Position numbers and translations under genes: made by a program
IMG/VR virus record: IMGVR_UViG_3300023172_000016
Location: 1-64,000 of that record
Reading direction: 5' to 3' (one strand)
Origin: a virus
DNA length: 64,000 nucleotides
Shown: in pieces, positions 27,088-43,842 of the stretch
Layout: every line of letters begins with the position of its first letter
Position numbering within the stretch: position 1 is the first letter of the stretch
Notes under the pieces: generated by a model
Seen by the model: the letters and a program-made list of their open reading frames with translations, nothing else
Database searches by the model: none
Told to the model about the DNA's origin: nothing

Positions 27088-27281
27088 GCGGTTCTTTTTA
27101 ATCCATGTCTTCCTTCGAAGGGTGGTTATTTGGTCTTCCTAGAAAGTCAGTTCTTTCACCCTTCTCCTCCTTATCATAACCCCATTTAAAGATTCTAAAA
27201 ACCATAACTAATCCGGCCAAGCCGAACATTAGGATAAGGGAAAGTAGTGGAAAATCAATCATAGTTTTTAATTTTTGTTAG

Positions 27282-27353
27282 TAGCCCCGCCAGGAATCGA
27301 ACCTGGATCAAAAGTTTAGGAAACCCCCATTCTATCCGTTGAACTACGGGGCC
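27282..27353 (-). tRNA. tRNA-Arg(CCT)
   Basis: GGCCCCG/CGGGGCT acceptor stem, loop TTCCTAA, GGTTCGATTCC; G.U-rich anticodon stem. Confidence 0.85.
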
Positions 27354-27369
27354 AGCATTTATTTGTTAA

Positions 27370-28047
27370 TTAAATATAAGATTTTCTAAACAATGCTATA
27401 ACATCCTTTGCGTCATCAACAGCATCGTGTGTGACAACTTTATCCAAACCTGCTCTTTCCTTGCAAAGGCTTAGACCTGGAAGAGATTCATCATTTTTCC
27501 AATCCGTAAATAATACACTTGGATCTAAAACCCTTTGTCTAATCCTCACTAGTTGTTTCCATCTAGGAAGTCTAACTAAGAACTTCATATCGAAAGTAGC
27601 AAAGTTTTTCCCAGCTGCTGATATGGTAATTGGTCTGGTTTTGTTTGTAATTGCTGGTAGCATTTTGCCATTTTTCCTCGTGACATAACCATCAGACACT
27701 GGATCGTTTAGTTTAACGAAACCATTCTCTGCTAACCAATAATAGAACTCTTCTGCAACATCATCCTCATTCATGAATTTCATGCCTGTGAGTCTTTCAA
27801 GATCAAATATTTCACTATCGTCCTCGGCTGTTTGGTAATGAACAATGGATTCGATGATTTCCTTGTTCATGTTAATTGCATAAGGAGATCCCTCGATTCT
27901 TTTGTGTAAGATAGCTGCATGGAAGGTCGGAAGATCCTCCATGGGTTTAATGTTGTTGGTGTCTTCAATGACTGCACCAATTGTTAGGATCTGACAATTT
28001 TCTGGGTCAAGTCCTGTGGTTTCTAAATCTATGCTTATGTACTTCAT
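27370..28047 (-). CDS. DEDDh 3'-5' exonuclease
   Basis: SIDLETTG, GKNFATFD, HDAVDDA. Confidence 0.85.
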   Translation of the reverse strand: MKYISIDLETTGLDPENCQILTIGAVIEDTNNIKPMEDLPTFHAAILHKRIEGSPYAINMNKEIIESIVHYQTAEDDSEIFDLERLTGMKFMNEDDVAEEFYYWLAENGFVKLNDPVSDGYVTRKNGKMLPAITNKTRPITISAAGKNFATFDMKFLVRLPRWKQLVRIRQRVLDPSVLFTDWKNDESLPGLSLCKERAGLDKVVTHDAVDDAKDVIALFRKSYI

Positions 28048-28057
28048 TTATCTCCTA

Positions 28058-28390
28058 TTATGATCCTACTTTCCTTGAATTTTTGTGATTTGTCCTTATG
28101 ATTATCTCAACCTCACGGTCGTCTAAAATTCCAAAATTAACTTCTTCCTGTTCTTTCCAAGCTTTATACTGTACTACATAGTTTCCTTGTATAACTATTT
28201 CGTACTTGGAAGGCTCGTTTATAACCTCATATCTAATGAGGATACAATATGCGCTTGGGAAAGAAACCGATTTAACATCTACGACACGGTCCTCAGTTTT
28301 TTTGATTTTCTTCTGTGAGAACTTATTTACCCATTTCCAGAATCTATTTTTTCCTGGATTGCCCAATATTTTAAATTGCATAACTTTCAA
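28058..28390 (-). CDS. Hypothetical protein
   Basis: 110-aa ORF. Confidence 0.45.
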   Translation of the reverse strand: MKVMQFKILGNPGKNRFWKWVNKFSQKKIKKTEDRVVDVKSVSFPSAYCILIRYEVINEPSKYEIVIQGNYVVQYKAWKEQEEVNFGILDDREVEIIIRTNHKNSRKVGS

Positions 28391-28452
28391 TGACTGGTGT
28401 ATCTTTCTATCCTCAATAATAGCATTGTTTCCCGTAATAAAAAAACGAGCAC

Positions 28453-28480
28453 AAAAAAGGCCTCAATATTTGAGACCCTT
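28453..28480 (-). terminator. Intrinsic terminator
   Basis: GGTCTCAA-ATA-TTGAGGCC followed by T6. Confidence 0.65.
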
Positions 28481-28503
28481 AATTTTCTGTGAGTTTATAA
28501 CTC

Positions 28504-28695
28504 TTAGATGAATAGAATCAAATCACCAAACGAATCCCAATCACCATTGTCCTTTTCAGATTCTTTATCCGAATCATCATGTTCGTTCTCGGTTATTTCA
28601 GAATAGTAATCCCCGTAGGAATCATAGTGTGGAAGGAAAAAAGGATGGTCGGCTGCAGATTTTTCTGGGTTGTTAGGGGAAGGTGGCTGGTTCAT
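28504..28695 (-). CDS. Small acidic hypothetical protein
   Basis: 63-aa ORF behind GATAAATA at 28717-28724. Confidence 0.45.
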   Translation of the reverse strand: MNQPPSPNNPEKSAADHPFFLPHYDSYGDYYSEITENEHDDSDKESEKDNGDWDSFGDLILFI

Positions 28696-28748
28696 TTTGT
28701 GGATTGGATTTTCTTGTATTTATCTTAGAATTTATTTTTTTTAAACTG

Positions 28749-28821
28749 AGGCACAGACTGGATTCGAACCAGTGAATAACGGATTTGCAGTCCGCTCCCT
28801 TAGCCACTTGGGTACTGTGCC
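28749..28821 (-). tRNA. tRNA-Cys(GCA)
   Basis: GGCACAG/CTGTGCC, loop CTGCAAA, U discriminator. Confidence 0.92.
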
Positions 28822-28984
28822 TTATGCAGGTACAGGAGTTTGTATTTTAGACCCGGTTGGAAGTTGAGCGCTTGCTAATTCTTTTGCAATTATAGAATTT
28901 GGTGCTTCGATATAAAGTCTTAGTGTTCCTCCCCTTTGTAAAATATAATCAACCCTGTATTTCATCTCTTAATTAATTAGTTAG

Positions 28985-29070
28985 TAGTCCGGGCGGGACT
29001 CGAACCCGCACGAGCATTACTGCTCAAAAGATTTTAAGTCTTTCATGTCTACCGATTCCATCACCGGACC
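28985..29070 (-). tRNA. tRNA-Leu(TAA)
   Basis: Loop CTTAAAA, long variable arm GAGCA-GTAA-TGCTC. Confidence 0.92.
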
Positions 29071-29104
29071 AACTCCACAAATCTAAGATATGGCTGGAAA
29101 ATGT

Positions 29105-29974
29105 CTACGATCTTTTTTGGTAAACTTTCAAGTTTTTAACAATCATGCTTCCCTCTGTGGGTGAATTACCATCTTTGGGCTCTTTTAATCCATTATTTAA
29201 GATAATAAATTGTTCAGCAGAATTGCACTTTAGCATTGCATGAATTTTACAAACTTGAACCAGTTGTCCGTCGAAGTAGATCTTTATAAACTTATCAGTC
29301 CAGTGAATTGCATACTGAACAAATCTATCCTGCGGATCTTTGACAAATATTCTAGGCGCTCCGTAATCCTTCTTACCTTCTTGCCAAGTATTCCCTGTTC
29401 CCCAATGGATGTTTGGTTTTAATGAAATATCATTTACATCCTGATCTGTATAAGCCTCAAAAATATCAATCTCTGGTGGCCAGGAGTTAGTACCACTGGT
29501 CCAAAATGCTGACCATTGCATTTCCTCTTTTGGGAGCTGAATCTCAGCTTCTATCCAGCCATACTTAAAAGATCTTTTTGAACTTATCAAACCAGAAGCC
29601 CAAGGAAGCGTAAACTCATCAGGAAGTTCGGGTTTTTGTTGCCATTGGGGTAGATCCTTTTTGTATATGGTTTTTGGTAAATATTTGTTTTCTAAAACCA
29701 AACCCTCCTTCGTGTTTTTAGTAGCTTCACCCGTCCAATACCACCAAAGTTGATCTGTGTGGAAAAATCCCCAGGGCTGGCCATATCTCCATTCATCCAT
29801 GTTGAGTGAAGTGGAGGTGAAATCATCTTCGAAGGCTAATACATATCCCTCGGGCGGAAGAACCTTTCTTTCGCCAGTAACCTCTTTTTTAGAAAGCCTC
29901 CAAGCTTTGTATTGTAACCAAAAATTATAAAGGTTACCCAAGGGGATTCTTTGTAGATAGTGTTTAAGTACCAT
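29105..29974 (-). CDS. Glycoside hydrolase family 16
   Basis: FEDDF, FKYGWIEA, WSAFW, WPPEIDIFE catalytic motif. Confidence 0.88.
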   Translation of the reverse strand: MVLKHYLQRIPLGNLYNFWLQYKAWRLSKKEVTGERKVLPPEGYVLAFEDDFTSTSLNMDEWRYGQPWGFFHTDQLWWYWTGEATKNTKEGLVLENKYLPKTIYKKDLPQWQQKPELPDEFTLPWASGLISSKRSFKYGWIEAEIQLPKEEMQWSAFWTSGTNSWPPEIDIFEAYTDQDVNDISLKPNIHWGTGNTWQEGKKDYGAPRIFVKDPQDRFVQYAIHWTDKFIKIYFDGQLVQVCKIHAMLKCNSAEQFIILNNGLKEPKDGNSPTEGSMIVKNLKVYQKRS

Positions 29975-29988
29975 AGATATATTTTTAT

Positions 29989-30564
29989 CTATATAACCAC
30001 ATTAAGAGACCTGTTGAAAATATATCCCCATATTCTTTCCATCACACAGGGAAAATCATCGTACTCCTCATGCATTTCCATAAGTCTTTCGTAAAATTCC
30101 TTAGACCTAGATTTTATTGAAGATGCAGGAACAACAAACTGAGCTCCAGCAAAAAAGGAATAAAAACCCAATCTAAAACCAAAGATTCTTTTGAAGTATT
30201 CGTCGAGTCTCAGACCTACGTGATCCGGCCATCCATTCCCGGCAGAACCGAAAAAATATCTACCGAAGGGATTGAAATATATAAAATCCTTTCCAGAATT
30301 TTCTTGCTGAACTATCTCTTCAAAGATTGTGTCATGGTTTGCGTGATCGAACGGATTTCCTTGAAGAAAACAATAATTTCCATCTAACCTTTCATAATTT
30401 TCGACTATAAAGGAAATGTATGTATAGGACTCTCTTCCTATATTTGGCATGAATTTGTTGTTTAGGAACTCTGAATTTTCTTCTTTCTTTATAACAAAAA
30501 CTTCCCCAGGCAGGTCTCTTGACCAACTCACATCTTCCAAATATTGGGCTATTACATATTTCAT
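29989..30564 (-). CDS. DUF3431-like protein
   Basis: VIAQY.ED.SW, PNIGRESYTY, FLQGNPFDH, GAQFVV, ERIW. Confidence 0.7.
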   Translation of the reverse strand: MKYVIAQYLEDVSWSRDLPGEVFVIKKEENSEFLNNKFMPNIGRESYTYISFIVENYERLDGNYCFLQGNPFDHANHDTIFEEIVQQENSGKDFIYFNPFGRYFFGSAGNGWPDHVGLRLDEYFKRIFGFRLGFYSFFAGAQFVVPASSIKSRSKEFYERLMEMHEEYDDFPCVMERIWGYIFNRSLNVVI

Positions 30565-30586
30565 ATTGTATTTATTTATTTATTTG

Positions 30587-30659
30587 CACGCCAGGTAGGA
30601 TTCGAACCGGCGAATAGCGGTTTTGCAGACAGATCCATTAACCACTTGGGTACCTCGCC
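30587..30659 (-). pseudogene. Chimeric pseudo-tRNA (Cys-like 5' part with GCA anticodon, tRNA-Trp 3' end)
   Basis: Acceptor, anticodon and T stems mostly mismatched; 3' 14 nt identical to the tRNA-Trp 3' end at 31306-31319. Confidence 0.7.
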
Positions 30660-30660
30660 A

Positions 30661-31290
30661 TTATTTTATCCATCTATGATAATCCATATTTTGCATTTGG
30701 ATATCACTAAACCCAACTCTCTGAAATGCAATTGATGGAGAAAAGCAATATGCCTTACATCCCTTTTGTAAATCAGTAAGCATCACATCCAATGGTGCAT
30801 TCTTTTTAGATATCCGATCCAGAAAATTTCTAAAGAATTTACTGTTAATGCCAACAGCGTGAGTTGAGAATGTGTGATGCACTTGAACTAAATTCTCAGA
30901 TACCTGGATTGGAGCCTTAGCCCCTTTATGAGAGTTGTGATTACCACCAAAATATAAAAGGTCCCAGTCACCCGGAATTTGTTGACTCAATTCACTGAAA
31001 GACTCAATCTCTGGTGTAAAGTAGCAGTCATCCTCAAGGATTAATAGATTACCAGAGTTTCCTTCTATACATTTTTCGACTATATCAATGTTGGAAAGGA
31101 CCAGACCCAGCTCGGATGTTTTAATCGAGGTTTCTTTTGGATTTAGTTTCTTTCCGTCATAAGCAGAAAACCGCTGGACATTTTCTATATCCCATTTTTC
31201 GAACTCCAAAAGAGATTCTTCCCACTTGTCCATCCTCCTATCTAAATTGACACAAAATATGGATTCAAAGAAACTATTAATACCGGACAT
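30661..31290 (-). CDS. Glycosyltransferase family 25-like
   Basis: CVNLDRRMDKW, RFSAYDG, LILEDD, DWDLLYFG. Confidence 0.8.
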   Translation of the reverse strand: MSGINSFFESIFCVNLDRRMDKWEESLLEFEKWDIENVQRFSAYDGKKLNPKETSIKTSELGLVLSNIDIVEKCIEGNSGNLLILEDDCYFTPEIESFSELSQQIPGDWDLLYFGGNHNSHKGAKAPIQVSENLVQVHHTFSTHAVGINSKFFRNFLDRISKKNAPLDVMLTDLQKGCKAYCFSPSIAFQRVGFSDIQMQNMDYHRWIK

Positions 31291-31306
31291 ATGTTATTTA
31301 TCTTAG

Positions 31307-31379
31307 CACGCCAGGTAGGGCTCGAACCCACGGCCCTCGGTTTTGGAGACCGATGCTCTACCAACTGAGCTACTGGCGT
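31307..31379 (-). tRNA. tRNA-Trp(CCA)
   Basis: ACGCCAG/CTGGCGT, loop CTCCAAA. Confidence 0.93.
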
Positions 31380-31385
31380 AAATTG

Positions 31386-31468
31386 TTGGCAGGGACGGAT
31401 TCGAACCGCCGTACTCCGAAGAGAGCAGATTTACAGTCTGCCGCCTTTAACCACTCGGCCACCTACCA
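31386..31468 (-). tRNA. tRNA-Tyr(GTA)
   Basis: Loop CTGTAAA, long variable arm, TGGTAGG/CCTGCCA acceptor. Confidence 0.9.
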
Positions 31469-31479
31469 ATTTTGTACCC

Positions 31480-32160
31480 CTATTTCTTTCTAATTACCAG
31501 TTTAATATTCGGACCAGCGACGTAATGATCACCTAATATCTCCCATTCAGATTCTGGAAATTTACAATAGTGATAAATCATAGAACCCTTTCCCAATATT
31601 TCCTGACTTACTGTGTATTCATCAGTTTTAACAAATTCACCGTTGGAAAAGATGTTCCAGTAAATAATGGTGCCCTGCATGAAATTATCATCTACTGCAA
31701 TATAGGATCCGCTTTTCATTTTATCCTTAATTGCCAAAAACTCTAAAAATCCATGGAGCATTGAAGGTTCAGGGTTATAGATGTCCAGATCCCACGAATC
31801 AAGATGTACAAGATCTGGGGAACCTTCAAATTCCCTTAAAAACTTAACAGAATCCATCTTATAATGGTGAGAATTGTTAAATTCCGGTAAGGTCTCTTTT
31901 AAAAGCGATTCACTTCTTTCTGAGATCTCCTGATCTATATCAACTGAGTGGAATTCCCCTCCGTTCTCAAATGCCAAATGAGCAAAAAGAAAACCGAAGC
32001 ATCCATCTTCTAAATTCTGACTAGCTCCAGTTTCTATTACACGAAGATTATCTACCGTATGTAGATCAATCAGGTTAGAAATAACTTGAGCCTGACCTAT
32101 CCTATAGGAAGGTGGTGAAATGGAATTAAAGAATTCCAAAGATTTTTCCCAATTTTTCAT
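31480..32160 (-). CDS. Class I SAM-dependent methyltransferase-like protein
   Basis: VIETGAS, SVDID, DSVKFL, DLVHLDSWD, IAVDDN. Confidence 0.7.
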   Translation of the reverse strand: MKNWEKSLEFFNSISPPSYRIGQAQVISNLIDLHTVDNLRVIETGASQNLEDGCFGFLFAHLAFENGGEFHSVDIDQEISERSESLLKETLPEFNNSHHYKMDSVKFLREFEGSPDLVHLDSWDLDIYNPEPSMLHGFLEFLAIKDKMKSGSYIAVDDNFMQGTIIYWNIFSNGEFVKTDEYTVSQEILGKGSMIYHYCKFPESEWEILGDHYVAGPNIKLVIRKK

Positions 32161-32174
32161 AATATCCGTATTTG

Positions 32175-32275
32175 TAATCGCGATTGGATTCGAACCAATT
32201 CCAGCTTTTCCATTCAGAGTCAGCCTTACTGTTACTCAACCTTGGGAGGTGCTTCCAACCAATGGACTCGCGATT
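32175..32275 (-). ncRNA. tRNA-like RNA with acceptor stem and T arm but no D or anticodon arm
   Basis: AATCGCG/CGCGATT 7-bp stem, ATTGG-TTCGAAT-CCAAT T arm; TAACTTTG box at 32292-32299. Confidence 0.75.
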
Positions 32276-32332
32276 GTTTTTTATTACTTAGCAAAGTTAA
32301 GCGAATGTGCCGCTAAATAAAAATAGCTTTCC

Positions 32333-32521
32333 TTATTTCTTAAGGACTTTCTTAGATCTCTCTGCTAACCAGACAGCTCCACTTTTTTTGAATTCCTTCC
32401 AGTTATCAAAATCCCGTAGATCCTGTATAACCTCATCTGGAATAAGTGTGAATCCCTCAGGTGCTATGCCCTGATATTTGTAATACACAGAATTCTCGAT
32501 TTTTTCTTGTATGTCTGACAA
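32333..32521 (-). CDS. Hypothetical protein
   Basis: 62-aa ORF within the tRNA region. Confidence 0.45.
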   Translation of the reverse strand: MSDIQEKIENSVYYKYQGIAPEGFTLIPDEVIQDLRDFDNWKEFKKSGAVWLAERSKKVLKK

Positions 32522-32542
32522 TGTATCGTGGGTTATTTTTAG

Positions 32543-32618
32543 AGCCGAAGGCAGGAATCGAACCTATCGCGTCAAGACCAGTTTTGGCTGGCTTGCTCTG
32601 CCACTGAGCTACTCCGAC
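32543..32618 (-). tRNA. Atypical tRNA, anticodon undetermined
   Basis: Canonical TAGCTCAGTGGCAGAGC D arm and GGTTCGATTCC, but anticodon arm GCCAG-CCAAAA-CTGGT has a 6-nt loop without U33. Confidence 0.6.
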
Positions 32619-32620
32619 TT

Positions 32621-32696
<76 letters not shown>

Positions 32697-32701
32697 TTTT
32701 G

Positions 32702-32775
32702 CTCCCCCACCTGGGCTCGAACCAGGGACCTATTGATTAACAGTCAACCGCTCTAACCAACTGAGCTATGGAGGA
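32702..32775 (-). tRNA. tRNA-Asn(GTT)
   Basis: TCCTCCA/TGGGGGA, loop CTGTTAA. Confidence 0.95.
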
Positions 32776-32819
32776 ATAGAAAGGTCCGGGCCCAAAAATA
32801 GCCCTTTTGAAGACCTTAG

Positions 32820-32892
32820 TTGCGGGAGAAGGATTCGAACCTCCGACCTCCAGGTTATGAGCCTGGCGAGCTACCTCTGCTACCATCCCGCG
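32820..32892 (-). tRNA. Initiator tRNA-fMet(CAT)
   Basis: CGCGGGA with C1:A72 mismatch, loop CTCATAA. Confidence 0.9.
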
Positions 32893-32901
32893 ATATAATT
32901 A

Positions 32902-33006
32902 AAGGAAGGGGAATCTGGCGAGTACTTGTATTTGCCCGTTTCACACCGGTACCAAGCCTCCCGTCTTTTTCCAAATCCTTGCCTCTGTGAATAAGCACCC
33001 TTCCTT
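32902..33006 (-). ncRNA. Unknown structured spacer RNA (about 105 nt)
   Basis: Terminal stem AAGGAAGGG/CCCTTCCTT, inner stem GGATTTGG/CCAGATTC, fills the Gln-fMet spacer. Confidence 0.5.
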
Positions 33007-33008
33007 AG

Positions 33009-33080
33009 TTGCCCCTGCTGGACTCGAACCAACACTGACGGAACCAAAATCCGCTGTCCTGCCAATTAGACGAAAGGGCA
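33009..33080 (-). tRNA. tRNA-Gln(TTG)
   Basis: TGCCCTT/AGGGGCA, loop TTTTGGT. Confidence 0.92.
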
Positions 33081-33086
33081 AGATTG

Positions 33087-33160
33087 TGGGCCCAGCAGGG
33101 CTCGAACCTGCGACCTACTGATTATGAGTCAGTTGCTCTAACCAACTGAGCTATGAGCCC
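33087..33160 (-). tRNA. tRNA with CAT anticodon, probably Ile2 (lysidine type)
   Basis: GGGCTCA/TGGGCCC acceptor typical of tRNA-Ile, loop CTCATAA; elongator Met not excluded. Confidence 0.8.
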
Positions 33161-33166
33161 AGAAAA

Positions 33167-33219
33167 CAGGATGCTTTTTTTGAATATTTGCTGTATCAAA
33201 AAGTTGCTGTATGCATCCT
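33167..33219 (-). ncRNA. UACAGCAA-motif small RNA, copy C
   Basis: AGGATGC-ATACAGCAA...GCATCCTG, same architecture as 35788-35971 and 35976-36033. Confidence 0.7.
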
Positions 33220-33224
33220 TTTAG

Positions 33225-33306
33225 TACCGAGGGTCGGACTCGAACCGACACACCGTAAGGCGCTAGATCCTAAGTCTAGTGCGTCTACCAATTTCGCCAC
33301 CCCGGC
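33225..33306 (-). tRNA. tRNA-Leu(TAG)
   Basis: Loop CTTAGGA, long variable arm. Confidence 0.93.
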
Positions 33307-33310
33307 ATTT

Positions 33311-33375
33311 GCAGGATATCGCTTAACCTGCGGTGAGTGTTCCTTTCACCTTGTTCCCTTTCGGTACTACGATTT
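33311..33375 (-). ncRNA. Unknown spacer RNA with loop-E/GNRA hairpin
   Basis: ATCGT-AGTACC-GAAA-GGGAAC-AA-GGTGA..TCACC-...GCGAT. Confidence 0.45.
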
Positions 33376-33378
33376 TTT

Positions 33379-33466
33379 TGGCGGAGAGGGAGGGATTCGA
33401 ACCCCCGGTACGTTGCCGTACGCCAGTTTTCAAGACTGGAGCATTCGACCACTCTGCCACCTCTCC
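33379..33466 (-). tRNA. tRNA-Ser(TGA), CCA encoded
   Basis: GGAGAGG/CCTCTCC, loop CTTGAAA, long variable arm. Confidence 0.95.
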
Positions 33467-33469
33467 ATG

Positions 33470-33554
33470 TTCGGTTTTGTTCCACATTAGCCCTACCACA
33501 CAGTGGACATGGGTAGGATTTTGACTAAGGTGCTCCTAAGAGCTTTACACCGAA
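33470..33554 (-). ncRNA. Unknown structured spacer RNA, possible pseudoknot
   Basis: TTCGGT/ACCGAA closing stem, GCTC-TTAG-GAGC, CCTACC/GGTAGG, loop TCCAC complementary to downstream GTGGA. Confidence 0.45.
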
Positions 33555-33565
33555 AACCTGATCAG

Positions 33566-33638
33566 AGCCACTGGAGGGACTTGAACCCCCGACAGGCTGA
33601 TTACAAATCAGCTACTCTACCAGCTGAGTTACAACGGC
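33566..33638 (-). tRNA. tRNA-Thr(TGT)
   Basis: GCCGTTG/CAGTGGC, loop TTTGTAA. Confidence 0.92.
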
Positions 33639-33654
33639 TTTTAGGCATTTTCCA

Positions 33655-33670
33655 ACATGTCAAAGAACTG
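33655..33670 (-). promoter_or_regulatory. boxA-like antitermination site
   Basis: CAGTTCTTTGACATGT just upstream of the first tRNA of the array, resembling rrn boxA. Confidence 0.55.
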
Positions 33671-33760
33671 TTTGATTATTTGTCTTTTTTACATCCTGTA
33701 GGATATTATGTTTCCATACAAAAACACAAATAATTACATTTTTTCTCCTCTCAGAGTTTG

Positions 33761-34197
33761 TGGAGCTGGTGGGATTCGAACCCACGTCCAGCTAGGCACA
33801 CCCAGAGAATCTCATTCACAGGCTTATCTAGTTTTTATAAACTAGCAAATCTTTGTCACTTATTTTTTTGGACTGAGATGAGTGACGATACTCAGCGGAA
33901 GACGCTAACAGCGATCTTAAGGGTATTGGACAGTAGTCCTCAGGGTTACTGATCGACTTCCTATTGTGGGTACTTCTAACCCTTATTCCCCGATGTAACT
34001 TTCTGTTCCTAGGCAGTTACCGCCCAATGCTTAGGCTGCAAGAGCAACTTCAGCTGTTTCAACAGAACCTAGTCCTGCCAAAACGAAAAATGGATTTTCG
34101 CCATTTGAAGTGTTACATAGGTTATTAAAGAGTTTCCAATGCTAACTCTGCCTGCAATTCAAAGAACGTTCGCCTCCTGTCGATTCCATTCAGCCCC
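33761..34197 (-). ncRNA. ssrA: tmRNA
   Basis: 5' GGGGCTGAATGGAATCGAC, 3' GGACGTGGGTTCGAATCCCACCAGCTCCA with G3.U pair; tag frame 34031-34102 encodes GENPFFVLAGLGSVETAEVALAA*. Confidence 0.95.
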
Positions 34198-34209
34198 ATT
34201 TCTGTTCAG

Positions 34210-34217
34210 CAAATTTA
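34210..34217 (-). promoter_or_regulatory. Bacteroidota-type -7 promoter box (TAnnTTTG)
   Basis: TAAATTTG 13 nt upstream of the tmRNA; other copies at 34450-34457, 32292-32299, 29078-29085, 37831-37838, 1863-1870. Confidence 0.55.
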
Positions 34218-34249
34218 ATCTTTGTAAGGGATTAAAAAAACTGAGATAT

Positions 34250-34285
34250 AAAAAAACCCAAATCTTTTGAGAGATTTGGGTTTAG
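34250..34285 (-). terminator. Intrinsic terminator, probable attenuator
   Basis: AAACCCAAATCT-CTCAAA-AGATTTGGGTTT plus T run; 5' arm also complementary to 34315-34325. Confidence 0.8.
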
Positions 34286-34310
34286 ATATATCTAGACTTC
34301 TTCTAAGTGA

Positions 34311-34391
34311 TCACCTAAACCCAAAGTGATCCTTGCCTGTTGGGTAAAATCCCAGCGTCCAGATGCACGATATTTGATTTAAATGTTTCAT
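34311..34391 (-). CDS. Putative leader peptide MKHLNQISCIWTLGFYPTGKDHFGFR (26 aa, not in ORF track)
   Basis: ATG...TGA frame, 27 codons; last codons overlap the antiterminator strand; promoter boxes at 34414-34421 and 34450-34457. Confidence 0.65.
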   Translation of the reverse strand: MKHLNQISCIWTLGFYPTGKDHFGFR

Positions 34392-34486
34392 TATAGATGA
34401 AGATTACGGTTATTATATATCAAATCAACAAAAAGTTTCTTTTGCAATGCAAATGTAATATCTTTTTCCACCATAAAAAATGAGCT

Positions 34487-35782: not shown

Positions 35783-35787
35783 AAAAA

Positions 35788-35971
35788 CAGGATCGTGATT
35801 AGTATTATTCGGCTCTGCAGCTATATCTCTCTTTACGCCAATGAGAAGTTGACGTCGTGATTTTAGTTTTGAACCAGGTCACTGATCTCCGGGTCTCGTT
35901 AGAGAGTAAGCTTGCGCTGTACTACAACTAACTCTTCATCTAGTATAGAATAGGTTTGCTGTACCGATCCT
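35788..35971 (-). ncRNA. UACAGCAA-motif RNA, copy B (184 nt)
   Basis: AGGATCG-GTACAGCAA...CGATCCTG terminal stem around a long insert. Confidence 0.7.
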
Positions 35972-35975
35972 TTCA

Positions 35976-36033
35976 CAGGTTTCTTTTTATATAACACTTA
36001 TTGGATAGTATAAAAAATTGCTGTAAGAAACCT
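35976..36033 (-). ncRNA. UACAGCAA-motif small RNA, copy A (58 nt)
   Basis: AGGTTTC-TTACAGCAA-TTTTTTATA...TATAAAAA-GAAACCTG. Confidence 0.7.
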
Positions 36034-36040
36034 AATATTT

Positions 36041-36322: not shown

Positions 36323-37765
36323 TTAAATTATAATGTCTTTATACCTTTCAGAAAGAATAGTTTCGTTCATCACCTGAAGTGGCGATATAATTTCACCTTT
36401 GCAAATGCTTTTAAGAATTGCCGGCGAGAAACCGCTTACCAAAGCTGTACCAGATTCGGTGAAAGAAACCGGCACATTACCACCTCGGGATTGGATATTC
36501 CAGTAGATGATGGAAGGCATTGAGTATCCAGCTTCAGCATACATCCCTCTGACCATTTCCTGTGCAGTAGGATTCCATTCTACCTGATCAGTTTTATTCC
36601 AATAAGAGTAAGACATAAATGTCGCACTGTCGAATTCCATGTCAGAGAGGATCAATATCTTCGTTGGCATTTCAGATGCAGGTACAGAGTTTTTAACTGC
36701 CTGATCCAATATATGCGAAAAGGTCTTTTGGAGATCCGTGTTCATACCCCAAGCAGCTCTAGATAATTGCGAAAACCTCGACTTTAAATCACCCTTCAGT
36801 ATTTGAATCTCTGGGTTAGCAGAGAAAGTTACAAAAGAGTCCTTAAACGCTCCCTCGTTTCTTTCAGAAATGTACATCCCTAAAGAGATTGCAACATCCA
36901 AGCAAGTAACATTAGAATTTCCACCAGCGGGTGTCATCATTGAACCCGAGGTGTCAACGACTGGAAGAATTCTTTCCTCGCTCCCCTCCATGTAATCAGG
37001 AAGTGCTTTCCATTGCTCAGAGGCAAAGTCTGCATCTCCGTGTTTGAGAGTTTTGGTCACATCATAAGGATAGACTGCAGAAGCATTTACTTTTTCCTCG
37101 CCAGACCTTAATTTCTCAAGATATAAATTATATCTCTCCGAATCGTTTTTGTGAAATGCCTTAGTGTATCTTGCTGCTGCTACTGAAGGAAGCTTACCAT
37201 ACTCAATAGACTCCCAATCTTTAGCACACATAGCCTGCTCGACAACATTTGTGAGGCCAACCAGTGTCTTTCTATATTGCTTAGGTGTGAATCCTAAGAA
37301 GTTTCTTAGTCTGTTTGCTACCGGTCCCTTTCTAGGCATCCATTTAGCACAAAGTCCATTTTCGCTTTCGAGACCACTCTTTATTAGATCTAATGCAGGT
37401 GCTTCGAGCTTGGTGCCAATCAAAGTAAGCAAATCGTCCCATCTTCCATATTCTGGGATGAGATGTAGGTTTTTTCCTAGTATCTCTGGGTTGTCGCTTG
37501 CTAAATATGTAATAATGTCCTTGAAGATCTGTCTTTCTCCTGCTCCACCTCTGATGTCTCTTACCCAAAAAAGAATTCTCATGGCTGTAAGTGGATCCTC
37601 GTGAAACGCAAGTGAGAAGTTTGCAATAAGTCTTTGCTTATCCTGTCCCCTCATAGCACCAATCATGAAGAATAAATCTACACAAGCATTCAAAGAAGAT
37701 GAGTTGGTTGTCATCCCATTTTCCGTGGTGATGTTCTTGGTTCTAAGTGCGTCTGCGAGCTTCAT
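36323..37765 (-). CDS. DUF2828 (TROVE/Ro60-like) protein with C-terminal vWA domain
   Basis: TTENG, VDLFF, RDIRGGAGER, YGRWDDL, AKWMPR, then MIDAS motif DTSGSM, MNTD, SDMEFD, YWN, SGFSP. Confidence 0.85.
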   Translation of the reverse strand: MKLADALRTKNITTENGMTTNSSSLNACVDLFFMIGAMRGQDKQRLIANFSLAFHEDPLTAMRILFWVRDIRGGAGERQIFKDIITYLASDNPEILGKNLHLIPEYGRWDDLLTLIGTKLEAPALDLIKSGLESENGLCAKWMPRKGPVANRLRNFLGFTPKQYRKTLVGLTNVVEQAMCAKDWESIEYGKLPSVAAARYTKAFHKNDSERYNLYLEKLRSGEEKVNASAVYPYDVTKTLKHGDADFASEQWKALPDYMEGSEERILPVVDTSGSMMTPAGGNSNVTCLDVAISLGMYISERNEGAFKDSFVTFSANPEIQILKGDLKSRFSQLSRAAWGMNTDLQKTFSHILDQAVKNSVPASEMPTKILILSDMEFDSATFMSYSYWNKTDQVEWNPTAQEMVRGMYAEAGYSMPSIIYWNIQSRGGNVPVSFTESGTALVSGFSPAILKSICKGEIISPLQVMNETILSERYKDIII

Positions 37766-42351: not shown

Positions 42352-43842
42352 TTAATCCTTTTTGTATAAAATTTCCATAAATTCTATTCCACCATATGGA
42401 TCTCCTTTTGCTTGCATTGGTGAATAGCCATCAACTTGGTCAGAAACCACGAAAGCTTTGTGAGGGTTAACCATAACACCAAGCTTTTTCATTAATGGCC
42501 GGTTGGCTAAAAACGGGGTGCTTTTAGATATCCTGTCTGTTGGTGCAACTTTTACTTTAGGAATCTTGACGCCATTGAAAACTATATCCATTTCTATAAT
42601 GGGTCTTTCGTCTGTATCCCTACCTATTTCAGTTTTGGTTCTGCCAACAATTTTTCCTTCAATCTCATTTTCACCAATCTTGAATTTGAGAGTGTCTCCA
42701 TTTTCTTCAATTTCATCAGCATGGATAGAAGATGCTGTGGAACCGTTTCCTGTATCAAATTTAGCTACCATTTTTCCGATGGATGGAATTTCTAAAGTTT
42801 CAAGATATCCTACCTCCAACTTAGTCTGAGACCAATTCTTCTTGTCTACAATATAATCCAAGACATCTCCTACGATCGGTTTTCCGATAGCTTCAGATAT
42901 TCCTTCCGTTCCTGGTGATGAATTTACCTCAAGTATAAATGGCTTGCCAGTTTTAGAGTCAATCATAATATCAACGCCACACCAGTTACAAGATACACTG
43001 TTTGCTGCTTCACAAGCTATTTTTTCAATCTCCTCATTAGTTTCATAAGCTGAAACCTCTCCACCTAAGGTATAATTAGTCCTAAAGTCTTTCTCTACTG
43101 CTTGCCTTTTCATTGCTCCTAGGACTGTGCAGTTTTCTACACCCGGGTTTAAAGGATCGAATTTTTTAACTATTACCTGAATCCTTACATCGAAATCAGA
43201 ATCGATCTTTTCCTGCAAAAGTATTTCACCATCAGGATCAAGTTTTTGAATTGTTTGGTAGACTGACTTAAGAGATGCATAAGAGTCTACAATTGAAACT
43301 CCAATACCTTGTGAACCAGACAACAGCTTCATCACTACCGGAAATTCTCCCCCAACTTCTTCAAGAGCTCTATCCAATCCCTTTGTGCTATTAACTAAAG
43401 CATATTTTGGTGTTGGAAGCCCTTCCTCATCAAGGACTTTTGATGTGAGGTATTTACTTTCACATATTTCTATAGATTCCAAAGAATTAACACAGAAATA
43501 TCTAGATGCTTCAAGATCTCTCATAATTTGCTTTGTGTAGGAGTTAGTAGTGACTCCTCCCCTTGGAACAATAGCTGTAGTCTCTGGTCTTATTAAGATC
43601 TCTTTAGCCTCTTCTCCGTCAGTGTACTTAACCACGTGTCCATTATAGACCTTCTCTAGTACCACATTATTGACGTTAACAACATTAAATGTTAAACCTC
43701 TTTTCTCACACTCCTCTGCGAAAGACTTAGCAGTTTTGCTGGGTTTTGATTCCCCACTAAGCATAAGAATATCTACGGATTCGTTATTCTCGGCTTCATT
43801 TAGAAAAGATTGAAAATTAAGTGCAGGGGAAATCCTTTGCAT
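42352..43842 (-). CDS. RimK-like ATP-grasp ligase fused to a retropepsin-like (RimB-type) protease domain
   Basis: FPVVMKLLSGSQGIGV, LLQEKI, FRTNYTLGG, GVDIM, LEVNSSPG; C-terminal AKFDTGNG, ERPII, DR...TPFL.NR. Confidence 0.88.
   Translation of the reverse strand: MQRISPALNFQSFLNEAENNESVDILMLSGESKPSKTAKSFAEECEKRGLTFNVVNVNNVVLEKVYNGHVVKYTDGEEAKEILIRPETTAIVPRGGVTTNSYTKQIMRDLEASRYFCVNSLESIEICESKYLTSKVLDEEGLPTPKYALVNSTKGLDRALEEVGGEFPVVMKLLSGSQGIGVSIVDSYASLKSVYQTIQKLDPDGEILLQEKIDSDFDVRIQVIVKKFDPLNPGVENCTVLGAMKRQAVEKDFRTNYTLGGEVSAYETNEEIEKIACEAANSVSCNWCGVDIMIDSKTGKPFILEVNSSPGTEGISEAIGKPIVGDVLDYIVDKKNWSQTKLEVGYLETLEIPSIGKMVAKFDTGNGSTASSIHADEIEENGDTLKFKIGENEIEGKIVGRTKTEIGRDTDERPIIEMDIVFNGVKIPKVKVAPTDRISKSTPFLANRPLMKKLGVMVNPHKAFVVSDQVDGYSPMQAKGDPYGGIEFMEILYKKD

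What the first reader, a model, noticed from the sequence alone, without database searches (positions are those of the whole stretch)
32175..32299. tRNA mimic: perfect acceptor stem and T arm, with D and anticodon arms replaced by a new domain
Seen: a 101-nt element with a 7-bp AATCGCG/CGCGATT stem, A discriminator and perfect ATTGG-TTCGAAT-CCAAT arm. The middle folds as TCCATT/AATGGA closing two hairpins (TTGGAAG-CAC-CTCCCAA and GAGT...ACTC) instead of a cloverleaf. It has its own TAACTTTG box. Intact stems argue against simple decay. Inference: a substrate for RNase P and CCA addition that acts as a decoy for tRNA-targeting toxins, or as a tRNA-like module like that of bacterial YrlA RNAs.
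Basis: partly seen in the sequence, partly recalled or inferred. Interest (0 to 1): 0.72.

Follow-up and report, generated by a model that had tools for sequence, protein, structure and literature searches.

The report
Phage tRNA look-alike with masked anticodon
This 101-base gene in a T4-like marine phage encodes one member of a widespread, strongly conserved family of tRNA-shaped RNAs that keep all four tRNA arms but carry a 33-base insert that blocks the anticodon, so they almost certainly do not read codons; their job is unknown, like that of the old "stable RNAs" of phages T4 and T5.

Summary
The element is real: window 32175-32275, minus strand, 101 nt. It has a perfect 7-bp acceptor stem, an A discriminator and a perfect T arm, and lies in a same-strand tRNA array. 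ARAGORN and Rfam do not call it.

It is not a one-off. I found 80 related IMG/VR loci. A covariance model scores members at 61-124 bits and ordinary tRNAs at 30 bits or less. Covariation supports the acceptor, D, T and GAGU/ACUC helices and a 3-bp junction stem.

- The D arm is kept (N-CCA-UUGGU-UGG-N').
- The anticodon stem-loop is kept but split between nt 41 and 42 by a conserved ~33-nt insert.
- A triplet in the insert pairs with the nucleotides at anticodon positions 34-36.
- Deleting the insert in silico from consensus members gives a clean 70-nt cloverleaf. However, it has C33 and A73, and this copy's loop has only 6 nt.

The DUF2828/YrlA link and the TAACTTTG "promoter" are not supported.

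The best reading is a non-decoding tRNA mimic, matured like a tRNA, with an unknown partner. The nearest known kind is T4 RNAC/RNAD and T5 RNA1-3, but I detected no homology to them. Earlier runs of this scan found the same family on other DNA.

The parts
32175..32275 (-). Whole tRNA-like RNA gene, 101 nt including the discriminator (element position p = 32276 - coordinate)
   Evidence: Sequence. Covariance model R1 scores it 113.5 bits, E about 5e-24. An identical copy lies on an independent metagenome contig, L019.
32269..32275 (-). Acceptor stem, 5' strand AAUCGCG (p1-7)
   Evidence: Pairs 7/7 with 32176-32182. In the family, 6 of the 7 pairs show compensatory changes and 99.7% of cells are paired.
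32254..32266 (-). D arm UCCA-UUGGU-UGGA (p10-22), preceded by A8 G9
   Evidence: 100% paired in 46 homologs. Pair 10:22 occurs as UA, GC, AU and CG, and all four pairs covary once the divergent members are added. The GG in the loop is invariant.
32251..32253 (-). Junction stem, 5' strand AGC (p23-25; tRNA nt 26-28)
   Evidence: Pairs with 32203-32205. Pair 24:74 occurs as GC 35, UA 8, AU 2, CG 1.
32239..32250 (-). Anticodon-like hairpin ACC-UCCCAA-GGU (p26-37): 3-bp stem with a 6-nt loop here, 7 nt (UCCCCAA) in most homologs
   Evidence: The ACC and GGU strands are nearly invariant in the alignments (A26, C27, C28, G36, G37 at 90% or more; U38 invariant), so the stem is inferred rather than shown by covariation. 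ARAGORN draws this stem-loop once the insert is removed. Loop variants were tallied.
32206..32238 (-). Conserved 33-nt insert between tRNA nt 41 and 42 (p38-70): U, hairpin B and an 11-nt strand
   Evidence: In silico deletion of the equivalent stretch of consensus members yields a 70-nt cloverleaf. Many invariant columns lie inside it.
32217..32237 (-). Hairpin B, GAGU-AA-CAG-UAAGG-CUG-ACUC (p39-59)
   Evidence: About 98% of cells paired. 5 of 7 pairs show compensatory changes, and the top of the hairpin differs between subfamilies.
32209..32211 (-). Triplet GGA (p65-67) that pairs with CCC at 32244-32246 (p30-32, anticodon positions)
   Evidence: In the family, CCC/GGC changes to ACA/UGU, a double compensatory change in 4-5 aligned sequences and 7 loci. 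The middle pair is C-G in 44/46. The outer pair is mismatched in most members (C.A here).
32203..32205 (-). Junction stem, 3' strand GCU (p71-73; tRNA nt 42-44)
   Evidence: See the 5' strand.
32183..32199 (-). T arm AUUGG-UUCGAAU-CCAAU (p77-93), preceded by the 3-nt variable loop GGA
   Evidence: 100% paired, with 3 of 5 pairs covarying. The loop GGUUCGAAUCC is invariant or nearly so.
32175..32182 (-). Acceptor stem, 3' strand CGCGAUU, plus discriminator A (32175); no encoded CCA (CAA follows)
32292..32299 (-). Listed only because it is inside the finding; not shown to belong to the element
   Evidence: Not enriched in the window (58 found, 73 expected). Not conserved upstream of homologs (2 of 40).

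Best explanation
The element encodes a non-decoding tRNA mimic that belongs to a conserved family carried by large T4-like phages of marine and freshwater viromes.

Shown:
- The RNA keeps a full cloverleaf: a 7-bp acceptor stem, A73, a short D arm with GG, a T arm with UUCGAAU and a short variable loop.
- Its anticodon stem is split between nt 41 and 42 by a conserved ~33-nt insert, made of a hairpin and an 11-nt strand.
- Three bases of that strand pair with the three bases at anticodon positions 34-36, closing the loop as a pseudoknot.

Inferred:
- It is transcribed with the neighbouring tRNAs or the downstream methyltransferase-like gene.
- It is released by RNase P and 3' trimming, receives CCA, and folds into an L shape through the D-loop GG and the T loop.
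- It then acts by occupying a tRNA-binding partner through its nearly invariant anticodon-end module.
- Because that module barely changes between otherwise divergent phages, I favour a conserved partner over a fast-evolving one. That means host translation or tRNA-handling machinery, or a conserved phage protein. I also favour it over the Ro-like DUF2828 protein.
For: Family and structure:
- 75 loci were found with one pattern and 5 more divergent ones with a second pattern plus the covariance model.
- The alignment of 42 sequences has 85% mean column identity.
- 95.6% of cells are paired, against 21-45% in the slid controls. 17-20 pairs carry compensatory changes.
- Model scores are 61-124 bits for members and 30 bits or less for ordinary tRNAs.

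tRNA ancestry:
- A divergent member with a normal D loop scores 44.4 bits against Rfam tRNA.
- Deleting nt 39-71 of consensus members gives a perfect 70-nt cloverleaf.
- A8 goes with D-loop U14 in 43 sequences, and U8 with A14 in the two with a canonical D loop.

No decoding:
- C33 in place of U33.
- Loops of 6 or 7 nt.
- The 'anticodon' is CCC, ACA, UCC or CUC with no change of discriminator.
- There is no ARAGORN call even with introns allowed.

Context:
- It always lies on the tRNA strand, often 1-7 nt from the neighbouring tRNA.
- In this phage it fills the slot where relatives carry tRNA-Pro(UGG).
- The insert is part of the gene: no insert-less version exists in 2.9 million viral contigs.
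Against: - There is no evidence of expression. Metatranscriptome contigs from the same marsh did not cover the element (uninformative for a 100-nt RNA).
- No partner has been identified, and no protein is consistently adjacent (at most 12 of 75 loci share a neighbour).
- The element is dispensable within the lineage. The closest relatives have tRNA-Pro or nothing in the slot.
- The three-base pairing has a mismatch at one end in most members and is lost in one subgroup (CCUCAA/UGU, 8 loci).
- The ACC/GGU stem barely varies, so it is unproven.
- Thermodynamic folding of the single sequence is unremarkable (z = -1.2).
Confidence: 0.55

Rival explanations
1. Decoy for tRNA-directed host defence enzymes. 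The RNA soaks up a nuclease, nucleotidyltransferase or acetyltransferase that attacks tRNAs, sparing real tRNAs.
For: - It keeps the tRNA body that such enzymes recognise.
- It lies among phage tRNAs.
- The same phages carry many other tRNA-shaped RNAs on a common AGUCAGG/CCUGACU scaffold with very different middles. That pattern would fit diversification against varied enemies.
Against: - Anticodon nucleases read the anticodon loop, which here is non-standard and paired to the insert.
- The module is nearly invariant across divergent phages, which is unlike a target of an arms race.
- No defence or counter-defence gene is linked to it.
Confidence: 0.2
2. A tRNA gene with a new kind of intervening sequence. 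The ~33-nt insert is cut out and the halves are rejoined, for example by phage RNA repair enzymes, giving a tRNA-Gly(CCC)-like adaptor.
For: - In silico removal of the insert gives a clean cloverleaf that ARAGORN calls Gly(ccc), or Cys(aca) in one subtype.
- The insert pairs with the anticodon, as introns do in eukaryotic pre-tRNAs (established knowledge).
Against: - C33 and A73, where my recollection is that bacterial Gly and Cys identity use U73.
- A 5-nt D loop and A8.
- 6-nt loops in this copy and in other loci.
- The insert holds many of the invariant columns.
- I could draw no bulge-helix-bulge.
- No insert-less allele exists.
- Deletion scans of this copy give no Gly call.
Confidence: 0.07
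3. A cis-acting processing or regulatory signal. The tRNA-like fold only serves to direct RNase P or RNase Z cleavage of the polycistronic transcript, here in front of the methyltransferase-like gene whose ATG lies 14 nt downstream.
For: - It directly abuts the downstream ORF.
- It is embedded in arrays that need processing.
Against: - A plain tRNA would do the same job, and relatives have tRNA-Pro there.
- This reading does not explain the invariant 33-nt insert, or the conservation of the family in many unrelated neighbourhoods.
Confidence: 0.08
4. YrlA-like Y RNA that works with the Ro-like DUF2828/DUF7788 protein encoded 4 kb upstream.
For: - A DUF2828+DUF7788 protein is encoded at 36323-37765.
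- YrlA RNAs are tRNA mimics (PMC4201824).
Against: - No YrlA match at E<=10.
- The termini are in the acceptor stem, not in a Ro-binding stem.
- DUF2828 is not near any of the 75 family loci and is absent from 3 of 4 complete genomes that have the element.
- A relative has DUF2828 without the element.
- A separate YrlA-like hit lies next to a family member in L113, so the two are different RNAs.
Confidence: 0.03
5. Decaying tRNA pseudogene or chance hairpins.
For: Not called by tRNA finders. The single-sequence fold is not significant.
Against: 80 homologous loci with compensatory changes in all the main helices and invariant loops.
Confidence: 0.02

Closest known systems
Phage T4 RNAC (species 1, 139 nt) and RNAD (species 2, 119 nt)
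   Same: - Small RNAs encoded inside the tRNA cluster of a T4-type phage, on the tRNA strand.
- RNAC ends in a CCGGG-UUCGAAU-CCCGG T arm.
- Their roles are still unknown (PMC3014915).
   Different: - No detectable homology. Model R1 gives 15 bits on RNAC, like any tRNA.
- Different length and middle.
- I recognised no cloverleaf-plus-insert layout in them.
Phage T5 RNA1, RNA2 and RNA3, annotated 'tRNA-like stable RNA with unknown functions'
   Same: - They lie in the tRNA region and have tRNA-like ends and T arms with oversized middles.
- RNA1 has a tRNA-Leu-type D arm, like the AGUCAGG scaffold RNAs of these viromes.
   Different: R1 scores are 19 bits or less on them, and they share no module with this family.
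YrlA (Rfam RF02553), bacterial and phage Y RNA with a tRNA-like domain
   Same: A tRNA mimic with a D/T elbow and no decoding function. It is found in phages too (PMC4201824), and a weak YrlA-like hit lies beside a family member in L113.
   Different: - YrlA's ends form the Ro-binding stem and its acceptor-like stem is closed (my knowledge of the family). Here the ends are in the acceptor stem.
- No model match.
- No linkage to a Ro-like gene.
Intron-containing pre-tRNAs of eukaryotes and archaea (anticodon-intron helix)
   Same: A cloverleaf interrupted in the anticodon arm by an extra segment that base-pairs with the anticodon.
   Different: - The insert lies at 41/42, not 37/38.
- I could draw no bulge-helix-bulge.
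- The setting is bacterial and phage.
- The insert is as conserved as the T loop.
- The would-be mature tRNA lacks U33.
tmRNA tRNA-like domain
   Same: An acceptor stem plus T arm with a reduced D region and no decoding anticodon. A real phage tmRNA lies 1.5 kb away.
   Different: No G3:U70 (U3:A70 here), no tag reading frame ending in ...LAA, a length of 101 nt, and no call by ARAGORN or Rfam as tmRNA.

Membership tests
Canonical tRNA (Rfam RF00005) | 7-bp acceptor stem with discriminator, and a T arm with a T-psi-C-type loop | tested here: met
   Perfect 7/7 and 5/5 pairing with a UUCGAAU loop. Both helices covary in the family.
Canonical tRNA (Rfam RF00005) | D arm with GG in the loop | tested here: met
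   A 4-bp stem with a 5-nt loop UUGGU, shorter than usual. It is 100% paired and covaries.
Canonical tRNA (Rfam RF00005) | Continuous 5-bp anticodon stem with a 7-nt loop and U33 | tested here: not met
   The stem is interrupted by 33 nt. The loop is UCCCAA (6 nt) here and UCCCCAA with C33 in most homologs.
Canonical tRNA (Rfam RF00005) | Reaches the family's gathering score, or is called by ARAGORN | tested here: not met
   15.3 bits against a gathering score of 29, and only for the 3' part. No ARAGORN call, with or without introns. One divergent homolog does reach 44.4 bits.
YrlA / Y RNA | Match to the Rfam YrlA model | tested here: not met
   No hit at E<=10 on 31900-32560.
YrlA / Y RNA | 5' and 3' ends form the Ro-binding stem | tested here: not met
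   The ends form a tRNA acceptor stem that abuts the T arm.
YrlA / Y RNA | Linked to a Ro60-type gene | tested here: not met
   The DUF2828 gene is 4 kb away here. None lies near the 75 homologous loci, and it is absent from 3 of 4 complete genomes with the element.
tmRNA | G3:U70 alanine identity pair and a tag reading frame; model match | tested here: not met
   U3:A70 in 44/46 sequences. Not called as tmRNA.
Phage 'tRNA-like stable RNAs' (T4 RNAC/RNAD, T5 RNA1-3), a kind rather than a homologous family | Encoded within the phage tRNA cluster on the tRNA strand, with tRNA-like ends and no decoding arm | tested here: met
Phage 'tRNA-like stable RNAs' (T4 RNAC/RNAD, T5 RNA1-3) | Sequence or structure homology to the T4 or T5 RNAs | tested here: not met
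   R1 scores on these RNAs are no higher than on ordinary tRNAs.
Phage 'tRNA-like stable RNAs' (T4 RNAC/RNAD, T5 RNA1-3) | Accumulates as a stable processed RNA in infected cells | not testable with these tools
   Only assembled contigs of metatranscriptomes were available, and they did not cover the element.
Intron-containing tRNA | Removing the insert gives a functional-looking tRNA | tested here: inconclusive
   Consensus members give a 70-nt cloverleaf called Gly(ccc), while this copy gives none. C33 and 6-nt loops argue against function.
Intron-containing tRNA | Insert-less alleles exist, and the intron is less conserved than the exons | tested here: not met
   No insert-less version in IMG/VR. 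The insert holds many invariant columns.

The most novel reading that the evidence does not exclude
The RNA is a 'self-decoding' tRNA mimic. It carries its own codon-like triplet paired to its anticodon-position triplet, so it presents a ready-made codon-anticodon helix on a tRNA body. It can then enter a ribosomal tRNA site, or another site that inspects codon-anticodon pairs, without mRNA, and so redirect host translation during infection. A second unexcluded reading is that the insert is a new phage-type tRNA intervening sequence that is cut and resealed by phage RNA repair enzymes.
Probability: 0.1. Interest if true: 0.9.

Novelty: new variant of a known kind. Interest (0 to 1): 0.62.

Why it matters
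Phage-encoded tRNA-shaped RNAs with no known job have been on record since T4 and T5 were studied, and are still unexplained (PMC3014915). This family is a much better handle on the problem, for four reasons:
- It is short and occurs as a single copy in each locus I examined.
- It is present in at least 80 viral contigs, some of them complete 250-320-kb genomes.
- It has a well-defined, covariation-backed architecture and a nearly invariant functional module.
- It shows that a whole cloverleaf can be disarmed by an insert that pairs with the anticodon.

The family also belongs to a larger set of RNAs that display very different modules on one tRNA-Leu-like scaffold. Finding its partner would show what large phages do with tRNA mimicry. 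It would also improve tRNA annotation in viromes, where relatives are currently miscalled with odd anticodons.

Tried and rejected
I reached contexts through the search for related loci and pattern scans instead.
- **Single-sequence folding:** the MFE fold does not form the T arm and is not significant (z = -0.9 to -1.2).
- **Exact 27-mer of the 3' half:** no hit in IMG/VR.
- **blastn against 50,697 GenBank phages:** nothing beyond T-arm fragments for this copy, and no match for a consensus member.
- **Scaffold RNA against GenBank phages:** it hit only halves of ordinary tRNAs, including a tRNA-Leu 5' half.
- **Consensus core pattern in 185,579 prokaryote genomes:** no hit.
- **Expression:** three metatranscriptome runs and one DNA run were laid on 30600-34300. 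A DNA contig spans the element at depth 71. The RNA contigs cover the tmRNA and parts of the tRNA array but not 32088-32583. These are contigs, and small RNAs are usually lost, so this says nothing either way.
- **Promoter box:** not enriched and not conserved.
- **DUF2828/Ro link:** rejected.
- **Homology to T4 RNAC/RNAD and T5 RNA1-3:** not detected.
- **Rfam permissive scans of this copy and of three homologous loci:** no family other than tRNA for the element.
- **Archaeal-type bulge-helix-bulge intron:** I could not draw one.
- **Mini-tmRNA:** a short frame starting at GCA exists, but there is no G3:U70 and no ...LAA ending.
- **Anti-Shine-Dalgarno mimic:** CACCUCC matches the 16S 3' end, but this is a post-hoc 7-mer match. 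In the supported fold these bases are paired, and the subtype with UCACAAA breaks the motif.
- **T-arm identity with tRNA-Cys of relatives (18 nt):** the rest of the sequences do not align.
- **Conserved protein neighbour:** none in more than 12 of 75 loci.

Full report
**What is at the coordinates**

On the minus strand, 32275 to 32175 reads AAUCGCG, AG, a 67-nt middle, then AUUGG-UUCGAAU-CCAAU, CGCGAUU and A, 101 nt in all. It lies in a run of 14 minus-strand tRNA genes and a tmRNA gene. ARAGORN does not call it, and Rfam at gathering score does not either. A permissive Rfam scan gives only 15.3 bits to the tRNA model for the 3' part.

I scanned the whole 90.9-kb virus record for a perfect 7-bp stem directly abutting a perfect T arm. 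The scan returned only the known tRNAs and this element, so the tRNA-like ends are not chance. The record is an IMG/VR contig, about one third complete. It carries T4-type replication genes: topoisomerase II subunits, ribonucleotide reductase, and a DNA repair exonuclease (phrog_704), which I read as gp46/47-like.

**Synteny**

The gene just downstream is a 226-aa methyltransferase-like protein at 31480-32160. It has many relatives. Loci fetched through it show the same tRNA order in related marine phages. The slot between a small conserved ORF and this gene holds one of three things:
- tRNA-Pro(UGG) in L002, L024, L025, L028-L030 and L086;
- nothing in L020/L021 and L003/L032;
- this element, only in the window and in an identical 2.2-kb metagenome contig, L019.

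So within its own lineage the element behaves as one exchangeable cassette of the tRNA array.

**A conserved family**

A pattern made of the D-like segment and the T loop found 75 IMG/VR loci, giving 43 distinct full-length sequences. A second pattern plus a covariance model added five more divergent loci, three of them distinct sequences.
- The 42-sequence alignment has 85% mean column identity.
- Model R1 scores members at 61-124 bits (113.5 for the window copy) and ordinary tRNAs at 30 bits or less.
- The window copy is 91% identical to the L134 copy and 68-85% identical to the rest.
- The family is absent from 50,697 GenBank phage records. Its core is absent from one genome each of 185,579 prokaryote species.
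- In 53 distinct contexts, all 545 tRNAs within 5 kb are on the element's strand. Ten elements begin 4 nt or less after a tRNA, and four are followed by one within 3-7 nt.
- Some phages keep the element with only one or two tRNAs nearby.

**Structure**

With the acceptor and T arms fixed, the best fold of the window copy is a cloverleaf with a long irregular third arm, at -25.4 kcal/mol.

On the alignment, my structure is 95.6% paired, against 21-45% when partners are slid. It has 17 pairs with compensatory changes, or 20 once the divergent members are included.
- The D arm (10-13/19-22) is paired in every sequence. Pair 10:22 occurs as UA, GC, AU and CG, and all four pairs covary once L175, L176 and L196 are added.
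Its conserved cores (CCAU/AUGG, UUGG/CCAA) cannot form in the divergent members, whose D arms differ.
- The GAGU/ACUC hairpin is confirmed.

**The cloverleaf-plus-insert reading**

In tRNA numbering:
- Columns 23:75 behave like the 26:44 pair, which is often non-standard.
- Columns 24-25 pair with 73-74 and covary.
- ACC (26-28) can pair with GGU (36-38) around a 7-nt loop, UCCCCAA.
- Between GGU and column 73 lie about 33 nt: one U, hairpin B and the strand UUUAUGGCAAA.

Deleting nt 39-71 from consensus members makes ARAGORN draw a perfect 70-nt cloverleaf with a 5-bp anticodon stem. It calls this Gly(ccc), or Cys(aca) in one subtype.

The three loop bases at positions 34-36 pair with a triplet of the strand. 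CCC/GGC becomes ACA/UGU, a change on both sides at two pairs. The middle C-G pair is kept in 44 of 46 sequences. The pair at position 34 is mismatched in most members.

A8 goes with a D loop that starts with U in 43 sequences. U8 goes with A in the two members with a canonical D loop. I read this as a swapped 8:14 tertiary pair, which is an inference. One divergent member passes Rfam's tRNA threshold at 44.4 bits.

**Why it should not decode**

- C33 replaces U33, and the loop is 6 nt in this copy and in other loci.
- The anticodon-position triplet changes without any change of discriminator, which is A in nearly all sequences.
- A8 and a 5-nt D loop are unusual.
- The insert contains many invariant columns.
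- No insert-less version exists in 2.9 million viral contigs.
- Deletion scans of the window copy give no Gly call.

- TAACTTTG is present, but TAnnTTTG is not enriched (58 found against 73 expected) and is rarely found upstream of homologs.
- The DUF2828+DUF7788 protein at 36323-37765 is real but unlinked. None lies near the 75 loci. It is absent from three of four complete genomes that carry the element. L021 has it without the element.
- No YrlA match was found for the element. A separate weak YrlA-like hit and the start of a GOLLD RNA lie beside a family member in L113.

**Wider setting**

Many loci hold other tRNA-sized or longer RNAs (77-154 nt) that ARAGORN misses or calls with odd anticodons. 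They share the acceptor AGUCAGG/CCUGACU-A, a tRNA-Leu-type D arm and the T arm ACAGG-UUCGAAU-CCUGU, but have unrelated middles, and several occur per phage. Among 1103 ARAGORN calls, no credible tRNA uses that acceptor. Most members of the present family use the same acceptor. This copy has AAUCGCG.

**Known relatives in kind**

- T4 encodes RNAC and RNAD in its tRNA cluster. Their roles are unknown (PMC3014915).
- T5 encodes RNA1, RNA2 and RNA3, annotated as tRNA-like stable RNAs of unknown function. Their sequences show T arms and, for RNA1, a Leu-type D arm.
- Model R1 does not relate them to this family.
- I found no paper that describes this family. A 2026 preprint on bacterial tRNA mimics concerns other Rfam motifs.
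- Earlier notes of this scan flagged the same family on other DNA and reached similar conclusions.

**Expression**

Metatranscriptome contigs from the same marsh cover the tmRNA and parts of the array but not the element, while a DNA contig spans it. This is uninformative for a 100-nt structured RNA.

**Verdict**

This is a genuine, conserved, non-decoding tRNA mimic of a new architecture within the old and unexplained class of phage tRNA-like stable RNAs. Its maturation and mode of action are inferred, and its partner is unknown.

Noticed in passing
window 32542-32618 (-): A second odd tRNA-like gene. ARAGORN calls it Phe(aaa) here and '???(aa)' in relatives, and Rfam does not call it at gathering score. 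By my reading of the sequences, the anticodon loop is 6 nt long and ends in AAAA (CCAAAA here, AUAAAA in L020), and the T stem is weak. It is conserved at the same place in all the close relatives examined.
   Followed up: partly
L022:134-1725, L099, L130, L150, L031-L036 and others: A large set of tRNA-shaped RNAs (77-154 nt). They share the acceptor AGUCAGG/CCUGACU-A, a tRNA-Leu-type D arm and one T arm, but have unrelated middles, with several per phage. Some are miscalled by ARAGORN as Ala(agc), Pro(agg), Glu(ctc) or Val(cac).
   Followed up: partly
window 33758-34197 (-): A phage-encoded tmRNA (85.4 bits). Relatives encode tags ending in ...VALAA. A conserved ~245-nt stretch with a palindrome (34244-34283) lies just upstream, at 34198-34442.
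   Followed up: no
window 36323-37765 (-) and 35786-36037: A Ro-like DUF2828+DUF7788 protein. Two noncoding segments just downstream of it (35786-35858 and 35943-36037) are conserved in relative L021 at 75-90% identity and give weak, sub-threshold Rfam hits. They are better candidates than the element for an RNA partner of that protein.
   Followed up: partly
L113:665-764 and L113:1787-1867: Next to a family member, a YrlA-like match (38.9 bits, below the gathering score of 69) and the first 81 positions of a GOLLD RNA (55 bits, cut off by the end of the locus). These phage RNA islands combine several classes of structured RNA.
   Followed up: no
window 31480-32160 (-) and relatives L002-L098: The slot upstream of the methyltransferase-like gene holds tRNA-Pro(UGG), nothing, an extra ORF or this element in different relatives. 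No tRNA-Pro was found in the 90.9 kb held for this phage.
   Followed up: partly
window 27281-33638 (-): Most of the phage tRNA genes do not encode CCA; only Gly and Ser do. Several have unusual first pairs: A1 in Trp, U1 in Tyr, Asn and Gln.
   Followed up: no
window 42352-43842 (-): A 496-aa protein with a PHROG match to 'ribosomal protein S6 glutaminyl transferase' (RimK-like), a possible translation-related host-takeover gene.
   Followed up: no
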